Source: a virus (lineage: Duplodnaviria > Caudoviricetes). Taken from it: a stretch of DNA of 64,000 nt. The notes below the pieces were generated by a model that did not search any database, was not told where the DNA came from, and worked only from the letters and a program-made list of their open reading frames with translations. Every line of letters starts with the position of its first letter. The stretch's first letter is position 1. This document shows, piece by piece, positions 1-63,022 of the stretch. The position numbers and the translations under genes are program-made. The stretch lies in the IMG/VR virus record IMGVR_UViG_3300046516_001034, positions 899 to 64,898 of that record; one strand, 5' to 3'.

Positions 1-963
1 AATGGTTTGCCCGATCTGCTCGCTGACATATCTTCCGTCGCCAATGCCACATTGCGTGCGCTGGTCAATAACCTATCCATCGCCAGCGGCCCGCAAGTCG
101 TCGTGAACGATGATAGACTGGGTGATGGCGAGGACGGCGAGCAGATGTACCCGTGGAAACGCTGGCACACCAAAGCTGACCCGTTCGGCAACAACACCGA
201 GAAAGCGATTGAGTTTTTCAACACCGCCAGTAACTCACAAGAGTTACTTCAGGTGTATCTCGCGTTCTCGAATATGGCCGACGAAACTTCAGCAATTCCT
301 AAGTTCATGACCGGCACCCCTCCACAGGGGGGCCTCGGCCGTACGGCCAGCGGCCTCTCTATGTTAATGCAGAACAGCAGTAAAATCCTGCAAACCGTCG
401 CCGCTAACATTGATGGCGACGTGGTTGAGCCAATCCTGAACTCGTTGTTTGATATGGTGATGCTGACCGACGACACTGGCTTGCTCACGGGCGAAGAGAA
501 GATCCGGGTGCTGGGGGTGAAAGTCGCCCAGCAGCGCGAAACCCAGCGGGCGCGCCAGCTTGAGTTTCTCCAGATCACTGGCAACCCGATTGATATGAGC
601 ATCATCGGGCCGAAGGGACGCGCTAAGATCCTGCGTAACGTCGCCACCGAGATCGGCATGCCGGGCGAGGATATCGTGCCGACCGACGACGAGATGGAGC
701 AGAAAGAGAAACAACAGCAAGTTATGCAGCAGATGGCTGCACAAGGCGCTGCTGGAGGACCGCCGGGCGGAGGTGGCGCGCCACCCGCTGGTCCGCACGG
801 AGCGCCGCCCGGGGGACAGCCGGGCGGCGCTCCACCGCAACAACCGCAAGTTCCTCCCCGGGCGGGCGCGCTCCCCGGCGCGCCTCCCGGCGCTCCCCAA
901 TCGGCGGGATCGAGCGCTGGCGGGCCGAGAATGAACCTCGTCAATCAGGGCGGCCCAACATGA
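1..963 (+). CDS. Portal protein, C-terminal part (5' truncated by window start)
   Basis: Frame open from base 1 (NGLPDLLADISSVANATLRALVNNLSIASGPQV...); podovirus portal-like helical region followed by a Q/P/G-rich tail; matching N-terminal part at 63096-64000. Confidence 0.8.
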   Translation, partial: NGLPDLLADISSVANATLRALVNNLSIASGPQVVVNDDRLGDGEDGEQMYPWKRWHTKADPFGNNTEKAIEFFNTASNSQELLQVYLAFSNMADETSAIPKFMTGTPPQGGLGRTASGLSMLMQNSSKILQTVAANIDGDVVEPILNSLFDMVMLTDDTGLLTGEEKIRVLGVKVAQQRETQRARQLEFLQITGNPIDMSIIGPKGRAKILRNVATEIGMPGEDIVPTDDEMEQKEKQQQVMQQMAAQGAAGGPPGGGGAPPAGPHGAPPGGQPGGAPPQQPQVPPRAGALPGAPPGAPQSAGSSAGGPRMNLVNQGGPT

Positions 964-1009
964 GCGTGCGCGTTTACGCGAACACGCTAAACGCGAAGGA
1001 GTGTATTCA

Positions 1010-1411
1010 ATGCCGCGAACGCCGGGTATGAAGGGCTCAGGGAGCCTCAAAATGGGAGGTAAGGGAATGAAACCGCCAGCACCCAAAACATCCATGGCAG
1101 GCAAGGGGATCGGCGCTCCCAAGGGTGGCCCGGGCATGGGCGGCATGGGCGCGCCGCCCCCGATGCCGAAAGCTCCAATGGGCGCGGGTCCGGGTATGGC
1201 TCCTCCCATGCCCGGCGGCGCTGGTCCGGGCGCAGGACCGGGCGGCCCGCCGATGCCTCCCCCTCCCGGCGCAGGCGGCGGCATGGGCGGTACTGGTGGG
1301 TTCGCCAAGGGGGGTAGCGTGAGCACTGCGCGGCACGGGCCGGGGAAAGCGGTAAGCTCTTCCAGCGGTGATGCCAAGCCGCGTCACTCACGAGGCGGTA
1401 AGGGAGGTTAG
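1010..1411 (+). CDS. Gly/Pro/Met/Lys-rich small protein with GFAKGGSV motif
   Basis: AAGGAG SD upstream of ATG 1010; in the head-gene cluster. Confidence 0.6.
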   Translation: MPRTPGMKGSGSLKMGGKGMKPPAPKTSMAGKGIGAPKGGPGMGGMGAPPPMPKAPMGAGPGMAPPMPGGAGPGAGPGGPPMPPPPGAGGGMGGTGGFAKGGSVSTARHGPGKAVSSSSGDAKPRHSRGGKGG

Positions 1412-1414
1412 GCG

Positions 1415-2002
1415 ATGGCTGTAACACCGACTGCAACTGGCGCTCCTGCTGGCGGCGTTAACCCCAATGCCGCTTGGAAAGCTCCTATCAATCAAACTTT
1501 TGACGCGGCGCGGACGGCGGCGACTACGCCGGGGGTGGGGATAACCGACCCGGCGGGATTGGCTGCGGCGCGGACGGCTCGTCAGGGCGCGATACAGGCG
1601 GAAAAAGCTGCGCAGCGTCCACAAGGTGGTTTTCAAGGCGACCCGAACTCGCTCGTACCGAGAGGTCAAACATCGGGAGGCGTGAACCAGTATTTCAATC
1701 CAGCGACCGGCGGCATGTTCGTCGGCAATCCGTTCCGAAACAGTGGCGGCGCTGGCGCTACGGGTGGCGGAGGCGGTGGCGGAGGCGGTGGCGGTGGTGG
1801 CGGCGGCGGCGGCGGCGGCGGCGGCGGCATTGGTCCCGGCGGAGGGTTTTCCCCTGTCGCCGCTGGCGGCGGCGCGTTCGATGCCGCCAGCGGTGGAATG
1901 AACGCCAACAACGGCGGCCAATATGCTGGCTTTTCTAAGGGCGGTGTGGTGGGCGACACCAAGCCGCGCTATAAGGGCGTGATTCATAAGGGTAGGCGAT
2001 AA
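1415..2002 (+). CDS. Gly-rich protein with a 22-Gly tract and YAGFSKGGVV motif
   Basis: GGAGG SD; ORF track. Confidence 0.65.
   Translation: MAVTPTATGAPAGGVNPNAAWKAPINQTFDAARTAATTPGVGITDPAGLAAARTARQGAIQAEKAAQRPQGGFQGDPNSLVPRGQTSGGVNQYFNPATGGMFVGNPFRNSGGAGATGGGGGGGGGGGGGGGGGGGGGGIGPGGGFSPVAAGGGAFDAASGGMNANNGGQYAGFSKGGVVGDTKPRYKGVIHKGRR
1763..1828 (+). repeat. GGN trinucleotide tract (22 Gly codons, ending in (GGC)10)
   Basis: Read directly from the sequence. Confidence 0.9.
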
Positions 2003-2049
2003 CTCACGTGAGTTATCCACAGCAACTGGAACTTTTCGAGGAGAGTGAG

Positions 2050-60982: not shown

Positions 60983-62467
60983 GTGCGATCAGGGTGGACC
61001 TACCACGCGACCCCCACCATAAGCAGGTTCATGCAGAGCGACGCCTTTGGACGATTACTGGCAGGGCCAGTGGGATCAGGAAAAACTACCGGGTGCATCG
61101 TAGAAACCGCGCGGCGCATGGGCCAGCAAGCCCCCGGCTACGACGGACGACGGTACACTCGCTTTGCCGTCATACGACAGTCCCTCAAGGACGCCAAAGC
61201 GACTGTGCTGAAGGATATTCGCGGTTGGTTCGGCTCGATGGCCGACTGGAAGGTGAGTGAGAGCACTCTCTATATTGAGCAGGGCAACATCTATAGCGAG
61301 TGGATGTTCATCCCCCTCGATGAGCCCGACGACGTAAAGAGATTACTCAGCACCCAGCTTACGGCGGCGTACGTCAACGAGTGCAGCGAAACCGATATCG
61401 ATCTCCTCTCCGATATTGCCGGTCGTGTCGGGCGCTACCCCAACAACGAGTTTGGCGCGTGCACGTGGAGCGGCATCTATGCCGACACCAACATGCCCAT
61501 CGCCCATACCCCATGGGCCGACTTTATCAACAAGCCGCCGCCCGAGTGGCAGGTGTATCGTCAACCCGGCGGGCATACCCCCGAAGCCGAGAACCTCGCC
61601 CACCTCAACCAAACGGCGGAGACGATCCTCTTGCCGGATGACGACCCCCGTCGCATCGAGCAAGGAAGAGGGTACTACAATCGTTTGCTGAGTGTGGGCA
61701 CTCCCGATTACATCCGGCGCTACGTGTGGGCGGAGTTTGGGCGCGATCCCAGCGGAGCCGCCGTGTTCGCGGAGAGCTTCAAATACGACTTCCACGTAAG
61801 CGACGAGCCGCTGGAGCCTGTGTACAGCAGGATGCTGATCGTGGGGCAGGACTTCGGTCGCTCCCCTTGGAGCGTCATCTGCCAGTTGGATCACGCCGGG
61901 CGGTTGATGGTGCTGGAGGAAGTCCCCGGGCGCGGCCCCACGGGGGAAAACGTCGGGCTTGAACAACATATAAAACAAAATCTCATCCCCGCCCTCTTGA
62001 GCCCGCGCTACCAAGGGCGGCCGATAGCGATCGTGGGCGACCCATCGGGGCGCGCCCGCGATAGCCTGTTCGAGCTAAACAGCTTTGACCTCATAAAGAA
62101 GCTTGGGTTGCCAGCCGAGCCAGCGCCGACCAACGACATCGACCCAAGATTACGGGCGGTGGAGAACTTCTTGGTGGGGCAAGTAGGAGGGAAGGCGCGC
62201 ATCGTGTTCGATGCGCAGCGCTGCCCCACGCTGATAGCGGCTATGAACGGGCAGTACAAGTACTCCCTGCGCCCCGACAGCAGCGGGGGGATGTATATGA
62301 AAGATATACCGGAGAAGCTGCATCCGTGGAGCGACGTGTGCGACGCCCTCCAGTATGTGTGCCTTGTTACCGGGAACATGGGCGCATATCAGTGGGTGCT
62401 GGGGCGGGTGGTCGCCCGCGCCCCCCGCGCGCCGCGCCCGCGCGTGAGCGCGCTCGCGTGGACTTAA
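60983..62467 (+). CDS. terL: Terminase large subunit
   Basis: GPVGSGKT Walker A, AYVNE Walker B, DTN, GQDFG nuclease, SDVCDALQY. Confidence 0.9.
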   Translation: MRSGWTYHATPTISRFMQSDAFGRLLAGPVGSGKTTGCIVETARRMGQQAPGYDGRRYTRFAVIRQSLKDAKATVLKDIRGWFGSMADWKVSESTLYIEQGNIYSEWMFIPLDEPDDVKRLLSTQLTAAYVNECSETDIDLLSDIAGRVGRYPNNEFGACTWSGIYADTNMPIAHTPWADFINKPPPEWQVYRQPGGHTPEAENLAHLNQTAETILLPDDDPRRIEQGRGYYNRLLSVGTPDYIRRYVWAEFGRDPSGAAVFAESFKYDFHVSDEPLEPVYSRMLIVGQDFGRSPWSVICQLDHAGRLMVLEEVPGRGPTGENVGLEQHIKQNLIPALLSPRYQGRPIAIVGDPSGRARDSLFELNSFDLIKKLGLPAEPAPTNDIDPRLRAVENFLVGQVGGKARIVFDAQRCPTLIAAMNGQYKYSLRPDSSGGMYMKDIPEKLHPWSDVCDALQYVCLVTGNMGAYQWVLGRVVARAPRAPRPRVSALAWT

Positions 62468-62468
62468 T

Positions 62469-62496
62469 CTACTGTAGGGAGCACTCCCTACAGTAG
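62469..62496. terminator. Inverted repeat between convergent genes
   Basis: CTACTGTAGGGA-GCAC-TCCCTACAGTAG. Confidence 0.7.
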
Positions 62497-62497
62497 C

Positions 62498-63022
62498 TCA
62501 CAACTCTTCGAGCGGAAGAGCATTCAATAAGTTACTCTGCGAGTAACCCGCCCCAGCATCCACCGCCGTAGCGTTAATCACGATATCGCGCGCGCGCCCA
62601 CTCGCTCCTACACTCTCGTCTAAGTGTATCGTGAGATTAAACGCGCTCCCTATGCCCGCCGCAACCGGCTCGGGATTGCCCAAGCCCCCAATGCGCGACA
62701 CCACCTCCAGCACCTTCACCCGCGCGCTTAAAGGCTCCGCCGCGTTGGTCATCGCGGTATAGAAGCTGGGCAGCGCCAGTTCCACGTTGATCGCCGCTTT
62801 GAGCTTGGTGCGCTTGTAAGTGTTGTTCGCTCCCTGCCATTCGTTGAGCGCCTCATCGAGCATCCCCCGGAACACCTTGGTGCCGCACAGTTCGGCGTAA
62901 TCGCCCATGGTGAACCCAAGGCGACGTACAAGATCGGGGATCTCCTCCATATCCTTGGCCACGCCCTGCGCCAGTTCGCGCAAGCGCTGCTCGTCCGCTG
63001 CGCTTATGACTAACGATGACAT
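62498..63022 (-). CDS. Putative terminase small subunit (inverted orientation)
   Basis: Between terL and portal; HTH-like N-terminus, helical core, FNLTIHL beta tail. Confidence 0.4.
   Translation of the reverse strand: MSSLVISAADEQRLRELAQGVAKDMEEIPDLVRRLGFTMGDYAELCGTKVFRGMLDEALNEWQGANNTYKRTKLKAAINVELALPSFYTAMTNAAEPLSARVKVLEVVSRIGGLGNPEPVAAGIGSAFNLTIHLDESVGASGRARDIVINATAVDAGAGYSQSNLLNALPLEEL

What the first reader, a model, noticed from the sequence alone, without database searches (positions are those of the whole stretch)
230..62547. Genome-wide dispersed palindrome GTWACTC-N(3-5)-GAGTWAC, more than 50 copies, including inside core genes
Seen: copies (0-2 mismatches, ACTC/GAGT core nearly invariant) start at 230, 1999, 2363, 3944, 7225, 8737, 10204, 11428, 15006, 17105, 18544, 20160, 21940, 23641, 24886, 26229, 27413, 28271, 30947, 31829, 33482, 35485, 36466, 37850, 38776, 39601, 40663, 41607, 43519, 44299, 45176, 45701, 46372, 47121, 47766, 48745, 48929, 49829, 50476, 50868, 51673, 52321, 53515, 53898, 54545, 55421, 55749, 56634, 57025, 57876, 58477, 58942, 59811, 60153, 60568, 60940 and 62531, about one per 1.1 kb. 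Many lie inside portal, scaffold, primase, helicase, PolA, AAA and ejection genes in different frames, so unrelated proteins share peptides such as VTPxSN/VTPES and GYSQSN; the constraint is on the nucleic acid. The spacer of the copies listed is 3-5 nt (hairpin-loop geometry), but the W positions vary independently, giving A.A or T.T mismatches, which suggests sequence-specific recognition. It matches no operator I recognise. Inference: a genome-coating system, such as stoperator-like repressor sites, sites for DNA organisation/ejection/packaging, nicking or modification targets, or protein-bound RNA/ssDNA hairpins.
Basis: partly seen in the sequence, partly recalled or inferred. Interest (0 to 1): 0.92.

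Follow-up and report, generated by a model that had tools for sequence, protein, structure and literature searches.

The report
Phage-wide palindrome, probable protein docking sites
A 65-kb soil phage carries about sixty copies of one 18-letter palindrome, roughly one per thousand bases and half of them inside genes; related phages keep the same design with altered letters, and it most likely marks docking sites for a DNA-binding protein whose job is still unknown.

Summary
GTWACTC-N3-5-GAGTWAC occurs 64 times (2 or fewer mismatches) in the 64,898-bp phage genome, against 0.7 in Markov shuffles. Inside genes there are 36 copies, against 4.0 after synonymous-codon shuffling. No copy has a spacer of 0-2.

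The genome is a podovirus from a large uncultured soil family. Its closest named relative, Rhizobium phage RHph_TM3_14A, carries the variant GTTACCT-N4-AGGTAAC, and other relatives carry further variants.

The two arms vary independently. There is no compensatory change, no G-U bias on the sense strand, and the W positions fit independence exactly. Half-site centres lie 11 bp apart. I therefore favour docking sites on double-stranded DNA for a dimeric, probably phage-encoded protein (confidence about 0.5) over an RNA or ssDNA hairpin (about 0.2).

A 109-aa winged-helix protein encoded just after the DNA polymerase gene is a candidate reader. Two complete palindrome-rich relatives lack it.

About a quarter of the copies double as gene junctions, with a stop codon in one arm and a Shine-Dalgarno sequence in the spacer.

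The closest described analogue is the 17-bp repeat of Cluster O mycobacteriophages, whose function is also unknown (PMC4351075). This scan has noted similar dispersed palindromes in other phages.

The parts
230..247 (.). copy, N4, 0 mismatches, inside portal gene
1999..2016 (.). copy, N4, 2 mm, gene edge; holds stop codon of gene 1415-2002
2363..2380 (.). copy, N4, 1 mm, 4 nt before start of gene 2385-2912
3944..3961 (.). copy, N4, 0 mm, intergenic or gene edge
7225..7241 (.). copy, N3, 0 mm, inside gene 6345-7499
8737..8754 (.). copy, N4, 2 mm, overlaps start of gene 8753-9187
10204..10221 (.). copy, N4, 1 mm, inside gene 9921-11396
11428..11444 (.). copy, N3, 0 mm, codon 5 of gene 11416-14691
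15006..15022 (.). junction copy, N3, 0 mm: TAA stop of gene 14707-15009 in the 5' arm, start of 15034-17544 11 nt after
17105..17122 (.). copy, N4, 2 mm, inside internal-virion-protein gene 15034-17544
18544..18560 (.). junction copy, N3, 0 mm: stop of 18038-18547 in arm, start of 18565-20163 4 nt after
20160..20178 (.). junction copy, N5, 0 mm: stop of 18565-20163 in arm, spacer TAGGA, GTG start of the 2017-aa gene directly after
21940..21956 (.). copy, N3, 0 mm, inside 2017-aa gene
23641..23657 (.). copy, N3, 0 mm, inside 2017-aa gene
24886..24903 (.). copy, N4, 0 mm, inside 2017-aa gene
26229..26245 (.). junction copy, N3, 0 mm: stop of the 2017-aa gene in arm, ATG of the 2324-aa gene directly after
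27413..27430 (.). copy, N4, 1 mm, inside 2324-aa gene
28271..28288 (.). copy, N4, 1 mm, inside 2324-aa gene
30947..30964 (.). copy, N4, 0 mm, perfect 18-bp palindrome, inside 2324-aa gene
31829..31845 (.). copy, N3, 2 mm, inside 2324-aa gene
33482..33499 (.). copy, N4, 0 mm, ATG of gene 33500-33685 directly after
35485..35502 (.). copy, N4, 1 mm, holds stop of gene 35072-35488; terminator-like hairpin 35502-35523 follows
36466..36483 (.). copy, N4, 2 mm, at the end of the minus-strand arm; holds a called stop codon
37850..37867 (.). copy, N4, 2 mm, inside PEP-CTERM gene 37081-37878
38776..38793 (.). copy, N4, 1 mm, intergenic
39601..39617 (.). copy, N3, 1 mm, inside primase-helicase gene
40663..40680 (.). 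copy, N4, 1 mm, inside primase-helicase gene
41607..41624 (.). copy, N4, 1 mm, inside primase-helicase gene
43519..43537 (.). copy, N5, 1 mm, 11 nt before start of gene 42386-43507 (minus)
44299..44316 (.). copy, N4, 1 mm, holds stop of gene 44313-45173 (minus)
45176..45194 (.). copy, N5, 1 mm, 2 nt before start of gene 44313-45173 (minus)
45701..45718 (.). copy, N4, 1 mm, holds stop of helicase gene 45702-47108 (minus)
46372..46389 (.). copy, N4, 1 mm, inside helicase gene; recognisable at the same place in G005
47121..47139 (.). copy, N5, 1 mm, 12 nt before helicase start; kept at the same place in G005
47766..47783 (.). copy, N4, 1 mm, inside exonuclease gene; homologous position carries the variant motif in Rhizobium phage RHph_TM3_14A
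48745..48762 (.). junction copy, N4, 1 mm: stop of winged-helix gene in arm, start of 48376-48741 3 nt after (minus)
48929..48947 (.). copy, N5, 2 mm, inside winged-helix gene
49829..49846 (.). copy, N4, 1 mm, inside DNA polymerase gene
50476..50492 (.). copy, N3, 1 mm, inside DNA polymerase gene
50868..50885 (.). copy, N4, 1 mm, inside DNA polymerase gene
51673..51690 (.). copy, N4, 1 mm, inside gene 51184-51975
52321..52338 (.). copy, N4, 0 mm, spacer reads AGGA on the sense strand, ATG directly after (minus); holds a called stop
53515..53533 (.). copy, N5, 1 mm, inside VWA/metallopeptidase gene; kept at the same place in G005 and, as the variant, in RHph_TM3_14A
53898..53915 (.). copy, N4, 1 mm, spacer AGGA on sense strand, ATG of gene 52530-53897 directly after (minus)
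54545..54562 (.). copy, N4, 1 mm, inside AAA ATPase gene; kept at the same place in G005
55421..55439 (.). copy, N5, 1 mm, ATG of AAA ATPase gene directly after (minus)
55749..55767 (.). copy, N5, 0 mm, 6 nt before start of gene 55482-55742 (minus)
56634..56652 (.). junction copy, N5, 0 mm: stop of 56649-56846 in arm, ATG of 56439-56633 directly after (minus)
57025..57042 (.). copy, N4, 0 mm, between the stop of gene 57048-57983 and a terminator-like hairpin 57010-56979 (minus)
57876..57893 (.). copy, N4, 0 mm, codon 31 of gene 57048-57983
58477..58494 (.). junction copy, N4, 1 mm: stop of 58491-58763 in arm, spacer AGGA, start of 58322-58474 2 nt after (minus)
58942..58959 (.). copy, N4, 0 mm, inside gene 58922-59233
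59811..59828 (.). copy, N4, 0 mm, holds stop of the first leftward gene 59825-60118
60153..60170 (.). copy, N4, 0 mm, in the leader of the leftward operon, set in a longer 13-pair hairpin 60147-60176
60568..60586 (.). weak copy, N5, 2 mm, in the 1-kb non-coding stretch
60940..60956 (.). copy, N3, 1 mm, about 100 nt downstream of the promoter-like site TTGACA-17-TACAAT (60813-60841)
62531..62547 (.). copy, N3, 0 mm, inside the probable small-terminase gene 62498-63022
48746..49075 (-). candidate reader of the palindrome: 109-aa stand-alone winged-helix protein, encoded just downstream of the DNA polymerase gene
   Evidence: AF2 model, mean pLDDT 84.6. Foldseek and VIA hits are almost all winged-helix DNA binders: E 0.05-0.8, Z 5.9-7.9. 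Syntenic homologue in 27 of 55 polymerase-anchored relatives. No Pfam hit.

Best explanation
The repeat is a two-fold symmetric binding site on double-stranded DNA. It has two 7-bp half-sites (consensus GTTACTC, read towards the centre on each strand) whose centres lie 11 bp apart, about one helical turn. A dimeric sequence-specific protein reads it, most likely a phage-encoded protein that evolves together with its sites.

Selection keeps about one site per kb across the genome. Sites sit in the cheapest places. At gene junctions the arm is re-used as a TAA stop codon and the spacer as a Shine-Dalgarno sequence. In long genes, synonymous and conservative codon choices build the site.

Shown here: enrichment, symmetry, independent arms, drift between lineages, and placement.

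Inferred: that a protein binds; that it is the 109-aa winged-helix protein encoded after the DNA polymerase gene; and what binding achieves. My preferred guess for the function is genome-wide control of transcription by roadblock, or nucleoprotein organisation of replicating phage DNA, similar in effect to stoperators.
For: 1. Enrichment and geometry. There are 64 copies against 0.7 expected. Spacers are N4 in 38, N3 in 14 and N5 in 12, with none at N0-2. Almost every half-site occurs in a pair.

2. The arms are not kept complementary.
- The W positions fit independence exactly.
- Across 98 non-redundant family sequences, mirrored positions show 417 one-arm deviations, 36 complementary double deviations (27.4 expected if the arms are independent) and 42 non-complementary ones.
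- G-U and C-A mismatches on the sense strand number 60 and 72.

3. No conserved flanks within 30 nt on either side, so there are no fixed promoter boxes.

4. Intragenic copies use all three frames and are 9-fold above synonymous shuffles.

5. It is a family trait with changes specific to each lineage. Both arms change in concert: GTTACCT-N4-AGGTAAC in a cultured Rhizobium phage; CAACTAT-NN-ATAGTTG, TCACTA-N4-TAGTGA, CTACTT-N4-AAGTAG and TTACCC-N3-GGGTAA in uncultured relatives.

6. It is not a chromosomal feature of the bacteria sampled. There were 0-4 copies per genome in 301 genomes of one class, no more than the control pattern.

7. Candidate reader. It is a winged-helix fold, syntenic in 27 of 55 relatives, 22 of which are clearly palindrome-rich.

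8. The authors of the Cluster O paper reached the same inference for a 7-N3-7 repeat (PMC4351075, passages read).
Against: - No binding has been shown.
- 26 of 64 copies have a spacer of N3 or N5. A rigid dimer would tolerate that poorly, whereas a hairpin loop would.
- Junction copies carry sense-strand features: a TAA in the 5' arm and purine-rich spacers such as AGGA. These would also fit a role in the mRNA.
- Independent arms also fit a protein that reads the bases of a hairpin rather than its pairing.
- The winged-helix candidate has no Pfam hit.
- It is undetectable in two complete palindrome-rich relatives, G008 and G009.
- It is present in G015, which has only a weak, different palindrome.
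- Its association with the palindrome needs only about three changes on the polymerase tree, so it is confounded by kinship.
- OmpR-type domains usually bind direct repeats (recalled, not tested).
- No G000 protein is present in all palindrome-rich genomes and absent from the two palindrome-free ones.
Confidence: 0.5

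Rival explanations
1. The copies act as RNA hairpins in the mRNA, or as ssDNA hairpins during replication. A 7-bp stem with a 3-5-nt loop could occlude or present the ribosome-binding site, couple translation of neighbouring genes, mark RNA processing or stability sites, or serve as loading or priming signals on the lagging strand.
For: - The spacer range of 3-5 nt is hairpin-loop geometry.
- 14 of 64 copies contain a called stop codon and 16 of 64 lie -3 to 15 nt before a called start.
- Junction spacers are purine-rich on the sense strand: AGGA in 9 and GGGG in 7 of 56.
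- The copy at 60153 sits in a longer 13-pair hairpin.
- Spacing is more even than random in G000: CV 0.72 against 0.98, P = 0.0045. This would suit priming at about 1-kb intervals.
Against: - 73 of 215 sites have an A-A or T-T clash in mid-stem, at exactly the rate expected without selection for pairing.
- Compensatory changes are not enriched: 36 against 27.4 expected, beside 417 one-arm changes.
- There is no G-U over C-A bias on the sense strand: 60 against 72.
- Over half of the copies lie inside genes.
- In low-GC relatives the arms, such as ATAGTTG, are not Shine-Dalgarno-like.
- Even spacing is not significant in G001, G003 or RHph_TM3_14A.
Confidence: 0.2
2. The copies are targets on double-stranded DNA for an enzyme or machine rather than for a regulator. 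One version is a family-specific 'self' mark read by the terminase small subunit for selective packaging. Another is a site for a methyltransferase, nickase or other base-modifying enzyme.
For: - The marks are dispersed at about 1 per kb regardless of gene content, with variants specific to each lineage.
- The only family-wide small protein with a predicted helix-turn-helix region is the probable small terminase at 62498-63022. Its model has mean pLDDT 72, and the best Foldseek hits are Sf6 gp1 at E 0.16. It is found in 49 of 57 terminase-anchored relatives.
- The low-GC3 tail-fibre genes, which look recently acquired, carry few copies: 2 in 6.4 kb.
Against: - I know of no precedent for dispersed pac sites (recalled).
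- Ring-shaped small terminases would suit direct repeats rather than inverted ones (inference).
- No methyltransferase or nickase was recognised. This rests on Pfam scans of 51 distinct ORFs and PHROG scans of 29.
- Density differs 2.3-fold between the two arms, 1.5 against 0.65 per kb. Packaging or modification does not predict that.
- The small terminase is also present in the palindrome-free genomes G011 and G013.
Confidence: 0.13
3. A host protein reads the sites. The phage recruits or titrates a host regulator or nucleoid protein, and the variants reflect different hosts.
For: - No phage protein tracks the palindrome across the family.
- Variants go roughly with G+C content, and so perhaps with host.
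- A paper reports host CtrA sites in phages of Alphaproteobacteria (PMC9437464; I saw only the search listing and the start of the abstract).
Against: - The motif does not match the CtrA, LexA or other alphaproteobacterial operator consensus sequences that I can recall (recall only).
- No enrichment in 301 genomes of one bacterial class.
- Close relatives with 58-65% identical polymerases differ in motif: ACTC-N4 against ACCC-N3. That fits a fast-evolving phage factor more easily.
Confidence: 0.1

Closest known systems
17-bp dyad-symmetric repeat of Cluster O mycobacteriophages (Corndog and relatives; PMC4351075, passages read)
   Same: - A 7-bp inverted repeat around a short spacer (N3 there; N3-5, mostly N4, here).
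- More than 30 copies scattered through a genome of about 70 kb.
- A mix of intergenic, start-proximal and intragenic copies.
- Denser in the non-structural arm.
- Not tied to promoters.
- The phage is not obviously temperate.
- The authors infer a dimeric DNA-binding protein of unknown role.
   Different: - Unrelated sequence (TGTTCGG-N3-CCGAACA) and unrelated phages (Mycobacterium siphoviruses).
- 34 copies there against 64 here.
- The arms are invariant there, whereas here one position is degenerate and the spacer varies.
- Here more than half of the copies are intragenic.
- Here the motif drifts between lineages of a very large family.
- Here a quarter of the copies double as stop codon plus ribosome-binding site.
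Stoperators of Cluster A mycobacteriophages (PMC9283540, search listing and start of abstract only; details recalled)
   Same: - Tens of copies of one short site spread over the whole phage genome.
- Many lie at gene boundaries.
- They are read by one phage protein.
- They act away from promoters.
- This is the mechanism I think the present sites most resemble in effect.
   Different: - Stoperators are asymmetric.
- They are bound by a monomeric immunity repressor of temperate phages.
- They are oriented with transcription.
- The present site is symmetric.
- No repressor, integrase or sign of lysogeny was found here.
Start-associated sequences (SAS/ESAS) of Cluster K mycobacteriophages (PMC3203893, passages read)
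   Same: - A repeated element that occupies the ribosome-binding-site position.
- It contains a Shine-Dalgarno core.
- It sometimes holds the upstream stop codon.
- It is absent from the host genome.
- This matches the junction copies here.
   Different: - SAS are asymmetric, in one orientation only, nearly always 3-7 bp before a start codon, and restricted to the non-structural half.
- Here only 16 of 64 copies are start-proximal, and the element is a palindrome found also deep inside genes.
   Same: One DNA-binding protein reads 12-70 dispersed short sites, palindromic for KorB, Noc and SlmA, to exert global control.
   Different: - Those sets have far lower density.
- No ParB-family or other known reader was found here by Pfam.
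- Intragenic copies at 1 per kb are not a feature of those systems.

Membership tests
Cluster O-type dispersed dyad repeat | 7-bp inverted repeat with a spacer of a few bp | tested here: met
   7-bp arms; spacer N3 in 14, N4 in 38, N5 in 12 copies
Cluster O-type dispersed dyad repeat | More than 30 copies through the genome, both between and inside genes | tested here: met
   64 copies, 36 fully inside called genes
Cluster O-type dispersed dyad repeat | Sequence TGTTCGG-N3-CCGAACA in Cluster O mycobacteriophages (common descent) | tested here: not met
   The sequence is different, and the phage is a podovirus related to a Rhizobium phage. The resemblance is one of design only.
Stoperator (Cluster A mycobacteriophages) | Asymmetric site oriented with transcription | tested here: not met
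   The site is two-fold symmetric. The only sense-strand bias, A at arm position 3 in junction copies, is explained by use of a TAA stop codon.
Stoperator (Cluster A mycobacteriophages) | Read by the immunity repressor of a temperate phage | tested here: inconclusive
   No repressor or integrase family was found in 29 ORFs scanned with PHROGs and 51 scanned with Pfam. Small novel proteins could be missed.
Start-associated sequence (Cluster K) | Nearly all copies within a few bp of a start codon, in one orientation | tested here: not met
   16 of 64 copies lie -3 to 15 nt before a called start, and 36 lie inside genes.
Structured RNA or ssDNA hairpin element | Pairing kept by compensatory changes | tested here: not met
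   36 complementary double changes against 27.4 expected, beside 417 one-arm changes. The W positions are independent.
Structured RNA or ssDNA hairpin element | G-U tolerated on the transcribed strand more than C-A | tested here: not met
   60 G-U against 72 C-A in sense orientation
REP/MITE-like mobile palindrome | Extragenic; 20-40 bp or longer; spread by insertion | tested here: not met
   The element is 17-19 bp, not a multiple of three, yet sits in open frames in all three phases. Copies must therefore arise by point changes.
ParB/KorB/Noc-type loading sites | A ParB-family protein encoded by the element | tested here: inconclusive
   No ParB family among the Pfam hits for 51 ORFs
OmpR/PhoB-type winged helix (for the candidate reader 48746-49075) | Match to the family profile | tested here: not met
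   No Pfam family at E up to 1. The profile search against PDB sequences gave only E about 1 to two OmpR-family domains.
OmpR/PhoB-type winged helix (for the candidate reader 48746-49075) | Winged helix-turn-helix fold | tested here: met
   AF2 model with pLDDT 84.6. Foldseek top hits are winged-helix proteins: TrmBL2, MarR, SarA, AdeR, SaeR, with prob up to 0.97 and E 0.05-0.8. VIA gives Z 5.9-7.9, almost all to winged-helix DNA binders. These are middling scores.
OmpR/PhoB-type winged helix (for the candidate reader 48746-49075) | Binds the palindrome | not testable with these tools
   Needs EMSA, DAP-seq or ChIP-seq

The most novel reading that the evidence does not exclude
The palindrome is a lineage-specific 'self' code written through the whole genome at about one mark per kb, including into protein-coding sequence. 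A fast-evolving phage protein reads it to tell the phage's own DNA from host and competitor DNA, for selective replication, packaging or protection. The mark and its reader drift together, so each lineage of this large soil phage family has its own code word.
Probability: 0.15. Interest if true: 0.85.

Novelty: new variant of a known kind. Interest (0 to 1): 0.62.

Why it matters
Dispersed dyad repeats have been known in a few phage groups for years, and their function has never been worked out. This case gives the problem better handles.

- The density is very high, 1 per kb, and selection reaches into codon choice.
- The family is large: 577 of 599 candidate stretches in one scan encode a related terminase.
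- The site changes from lineage to lineage, so reader and site can be matched by comparison.
- A cultured member, Rhizobium phage RHph_TM3_14A on Rhizobium etli, carries 30 copies of its own variant in 45 kb. Binding, transcript mapping and site-removal experiments are therefore possible.

If it is a self-mark, it would be a new principle.

Tried and rejected
- RNA evidence. No RNA holder was listed for the stretch.
- Homodimer prediction of the winged-helix protein. No answer; score 0.00 against a mark of 0.42.
- Promoter reading. There are no conserved flanks. Sigma-70-like sites are not enriched in 33000-52000 (9 against 10.3) and only slightly in 52000-64000 (11 against 6.9). In junction copies the start codon follows within 0-15 nt, which leaves no room for a promoter.
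- N4-type hairpin promoters and a virion RNA polymerase in the 2017-aa and 2324-aa proteins. Sequence searches against PDB chains gave nothing. Not pursued further.
- Chi-like or uptake-signal reading. Rejected because half-sites almost never occur singly.
- Host-chromosome presence. In 301 genomes of one class, counts were no higher than the control. The host is unknown, so this is a sample, not an exclusion.
- Presence/absence screen for a reader. No G000 protein is present in all palindrome-rich genomes and absent from palindrome-free ones.
- ESM Atlas on the 373-aa and 311-aa proteins. Only unnamed viral clusters.
- Second winged-helix-like ORF, 43942-44307. No homologue in the other family genomes.
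- More distant Rhizobium phage RHph_N3_13. No dominant palindrome in 50 kb.
- Literature. Searches found no description of this motif or of dispersed palindromes in this phage family. PMC13611946 held none of my terms.
- Polymerase tree. The tree is the quick tree, because the careful search did not finish.

Full report
WHAT THE GENOME IS. The window is bases 899-64898 of a 64,898-bp IMG/VR virus record rated complete. My codon-usage gene caller finds 71 genes. They form two arms.
- A plus-strand structural arm holds the portal, the major head protein at 7676-8692, tail-fibre-like genes, an internal virion protein, and two giant proteins of 2017 and 2324 aa. The first giant protein has a tail-lysozyme domain.
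- A minus-strand replication and early arm holds a primase-helicase at 39375-42311, an SNF2-type helicase, an exonuclease, a family A DNA polymerase at 49292-51187, a VWA/metallopeptidase protein and an AAA ATPase.

The large terminase is at 61118-62467. The portal gene runs across the ends of the record. No close DNA match exists among named phages. By protein, the nearest named relatives are Rhizobium phages RHph_TM3_14A, TM27A, TM27B and TM29, whose major head protein is 63% identical. The only run holding most of the stretch is a soil metagenome, and no RNA run is listed.

All 57 listed positions show the motif. At 2 or fewer mismatches there are 64 copies in the genome: 22 exact, 28 with one mismatch and 14 with two. 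Thirty Markov-1 shuffles gave a mean of 0.7 and a maximum of 4. Spacers are N3 in 14 copies, N4 in 38 and N5 in 12. None is N0-2, three are N6, and N7 to N12 have one each. The exact 12-position core occurs 48 times, and the same pattern read backwards occurs 0 times. Thirty-six copies lie wholly inside called genes. Forty shuffles that permute synonymous codons within each gene gave a mean of 4.0 and a maximum of 7. Selection therefore acts on codon choice, and the residual four show that some peptides have also been shaped. The 29 intragenic copies examined use frames 0, 1 and 2 in 16, 7 and 6 cases.

PLACEMENT. Non-coding DNA is about 9% of the genome but holds nearly half of the copies. 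Fourteen of 64 copies contain a called stop codon, ten of them in the sense-strand 5' arm read as G-TAA-CTC. Sixteen lie -3 to 15 nt before a called start, and seven do both. In sense orientation, junction copies read GTAACTC, then a purine-rich spacer, then GAGTAAC, then ATG. Among 56 such copies pooled from three genomes the spacer is AGGA in 9 and GGGG in 7. Intragenic copies read GTTACTC...GAGTAAC. Nothing is conserved in the 30 nt on either side. Density is 1.5 per kb in the replication arm and 0.65 per kb in the structural arm. The three tail-fibre-like genes with low GC3 (0.50-0.52, against 0.67-0.78 elsewhere) hold 2 copies in 6.4 kb. Spacing in G000 is more even than random (CV 0.72 against 0.98, P = 0.0045). 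This does not hold in G001, G003 or RHph_TM3_14A.

A FAMILY TRAIT THAT DRIFTS. A scan of viral contigs with the exact motif picked out records with many copies. Whole-record counts of the exact core are 28 in G001 (52 kb), 12 in G002 (33 kb), 8 in G003 (21 kb), 9 in G004 (56 kb) and 23 in G005 (66 kb). The control pattern gave 0 in all of them. G001, G003, G004 and G005 share 7-34 proteins with G000.

RHph_TM3_14A has no copy of the G000 motif. It has 30 copies of TTACC-N5-6-GGTAA in 45 kb, which is GTTACCT-N4-AGGTAAC, with no copies at other spacers. A terminase profile found that 577 of 599 candidate stretches in IMG/VR encode relatives. Among the 80 loci kept, lineages carry CAACTAT-NN-ATAGTTG (21 copies in 21 kb), TCACTA-N4-TAGTGA, CTACTT-N4-AAGTAG with longer arms, or TTACCC-N3-GGGTAA. 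Some loci show no dominant palindrome. The shared core is ACT or ACC at a fixed distance from the dyad.

Some intragenic copies are old. For 17 G000 intragenic copies there is an aligned segment in G005. Three of these are flagged as sites there, and three more are recognisable by eye. Two (47766 and 53515) sit at the homologous codons in RHph_TM3_14A in that phage's own variant. The more distant Rhizobium phage RHph_N3_13 has no such palindrome.

DUPLEX SITE OR HAIRPIN? Three tests bear on this.
1. The degenerate arm position. In sense orientation over six genomes the pairs are (T,A) 127, (A,A) 51, (T,T) 22 and (A,T) 9. These equal the products of the marginal frequencies, so pairing at this position is not selected. 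A third of the sites would have a mid-stem clash.
2. Other stem mismatches on the sense strand are G-U in 60 cases and C-A in 72. There is no wobble tolerance on the transcript.
3. I tested each mirrored position in 98 non-redundant family sequences (1.9 Mb), choosing sites by the other positions only. Both arms are consensus in 2122 cases. One arm deviates in 417. Both deviate and stay complementary in 36, against 27.4 expected if the arms are independent. Both deviate and clash in 42.

Between lineages both arms change together, which either model allows. The half-site centres are 11 bp apart, so both lie on one face of the helix (inference). In the other genomes N4 dominates even more strongly than in G000. 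The tolerance of N3 and N5 in G000, in 26 of 64 copies, is the main point in favour of a hairpin.

WHO READS IT? Pfam scans of 51 distinct ORFs and PHROG scans of 29 found no repressor, ParB, integrase, methyltransferase or nickase.

The 174-aa gene at 62498-63022 lies on the opposite strand between the terminase and portal genes. Its model shows a helix-turn-helix region, two long helices and a short beta tail. Its best hits, all weak, are small terminases. It is present in 49 of 57 terminase-anchored loci, and also in the palindrome-free genomes.

Its AF2 model has a mean pLDDT of 84.6. Foldseek and the independent VIA search return almost only winged-helix DNA-binding domains, at middling scores: OmpR/PhoB family, MarR, ArsR, TrmBL2 and T4 MotA. 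A profile built from 20 distant relatives finds a homologue in the same place, just after the polymerase gene, in G005, RHph_TM3_14A (E 1e-11) and G001 (E 3e-6). It finds none in G004, which has only 9 sites.

Among 55 polymerase-anchored loci of at least 12 kb, 27 have the winged-helix gene. By my threshold, 22 loci have both the gene and the palindrome, 6 have the gene only, 6 have the palindrome only and 22 have neither; these counts include G000 itself. The polymerase tree needs only about three changes for the gene label, so this association is largely kinship. There are also exceptions:
- The complete genomes G008 and G009 are palindrome-rich but lack a detectable homologue.
- G015 has the homologue but only a weak, different palindrome.

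In the closest comparison, ACTC-N4 lineages have Y-A/K-L-R in the recognition helix and ACCC-N3 lineages have Y-T-L-R. That is three lineages against three, so it is anecdotal. The protein is a lead, not a finding.

NOT A HOST FEATURE, AS FAR AS SAMPLED. In 301 genomes of the class of one alphaproteobacterial MAG, counts are 0-4 per genome, against 0-8 for the control pattern. The host of this phage is unknown.

COMPARISON WITH WHAT IS KNOWN. The Cluster O mycobacteriophages carry 34 copies of TGTTCGG-N3-CCGAACA. Fourteen are intergenic, ten are near 5' ends of genes and ten are intragenic. They are denser in the non-structural end, not linked to promoters, in phages that form no lysogens. The authors infer a dimeric DNA binder acting in something other than transcription initiation (PMC4351075). 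That is the same design in an unrelated phage with an unrelated sequence, and its function is equally unknown.

Stoperators are asymmetric, oriented, and bound by a monomeric immunity repressor (PMC9283540, start of abstract only). The present sites may work like them but are not members.

Cluster K start-associated sequences share the overlap with the ribosome-binding site and the embedded stop codons. They are asymmetric and confined to gene starts (PMC3203893).

Earlier notes of this scan describe dispersed palindromes in other, unrelated phages, two of them with GTTAC/GTAAC arms. I did not test those.

VERDICT. The feature is real, strongly selected and family-wide. It is most likely a set of duplex docking sites for a dimeric phage protein (confidence about 0.5). 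Its role is unknown, and I guess it to be global transcription control by roadblock or organisation of phage DNA. It is a new variant of a known but unexplained kind, and it is testable in a cultured Rhizobium phage.

Noticed in passing
window 37081-37878 and 37984-38694 (minus strand): Two adjacent phage genes end in PEP-CTERM sorting motifs (Pfam PF07589, E 1.3e-4 and 4.2e-6). This is unusual cargo for a phage.
   Followed up: no
window 63129-63998, continuing at genome bases 14-1861: The portal gene is split across the ends of the record, so the assembly is a circle or a permuted genome opened inside a gene.
   Followed up: partly
window 3990-5678, 9921-11396, 11416-14691: The three tail-fibre-like genes have GC3 of 0.50-0.52 against 0.67-0.78 in other long genes, and carry few palindrome copies. 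They look recently acquired.
   Followed up: partly
window 62498-63022 (minus strand): A probable small terminase lies on the strand opposite to the large terminase and portal genes that flank it. The model has pLDDT 72 and its best hits, all weak, are Sf6 gp1 and PaP3 small terminases.
   Followed up: partly
window 60119-61117: A 1-kb stretch without a called gene separates the two arms. It holds a near-consensus promoter-like site, TTGACA-17-TACAAT, at 60813-60841 (+), a leftward promoter-like site at 60710-60683, and three palindrome copies. The long leftward leader of about 550 nt is unexplained.
   Followed up: no
window 52530-53897 and 54311-55420 (minus strand): There is a pair of a VWA/metallopeptidase protein (DUF2201) and an AAA ATPase. 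The pair is conserved in most family genomes but absent from G011 and G015.
   Followed up: no
window 43942-44307 (minus strand): A second small ORF (121 aa) has a winged-helix-like sequence pattern. It overlaps the called gene 43545-44015 by 74 nt and has no homologue in the other family genomes.
   Followed up: partly
G061:C1:860423-862251 (a bacterial genome of the sampled class): Three identical copies of the core motif lie about 0.8-1 kb apart in one bacterial contig. This may be a repeated gene or a phage remnant.
   Followed up: no
L215 (IMG/VR relative), e.g. 12698 and 4207: In this lineage the palindrome has grown to 22 bp, with 9-bp arms around TCGA. Arm length therefore also evolves.
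   Followed up: no
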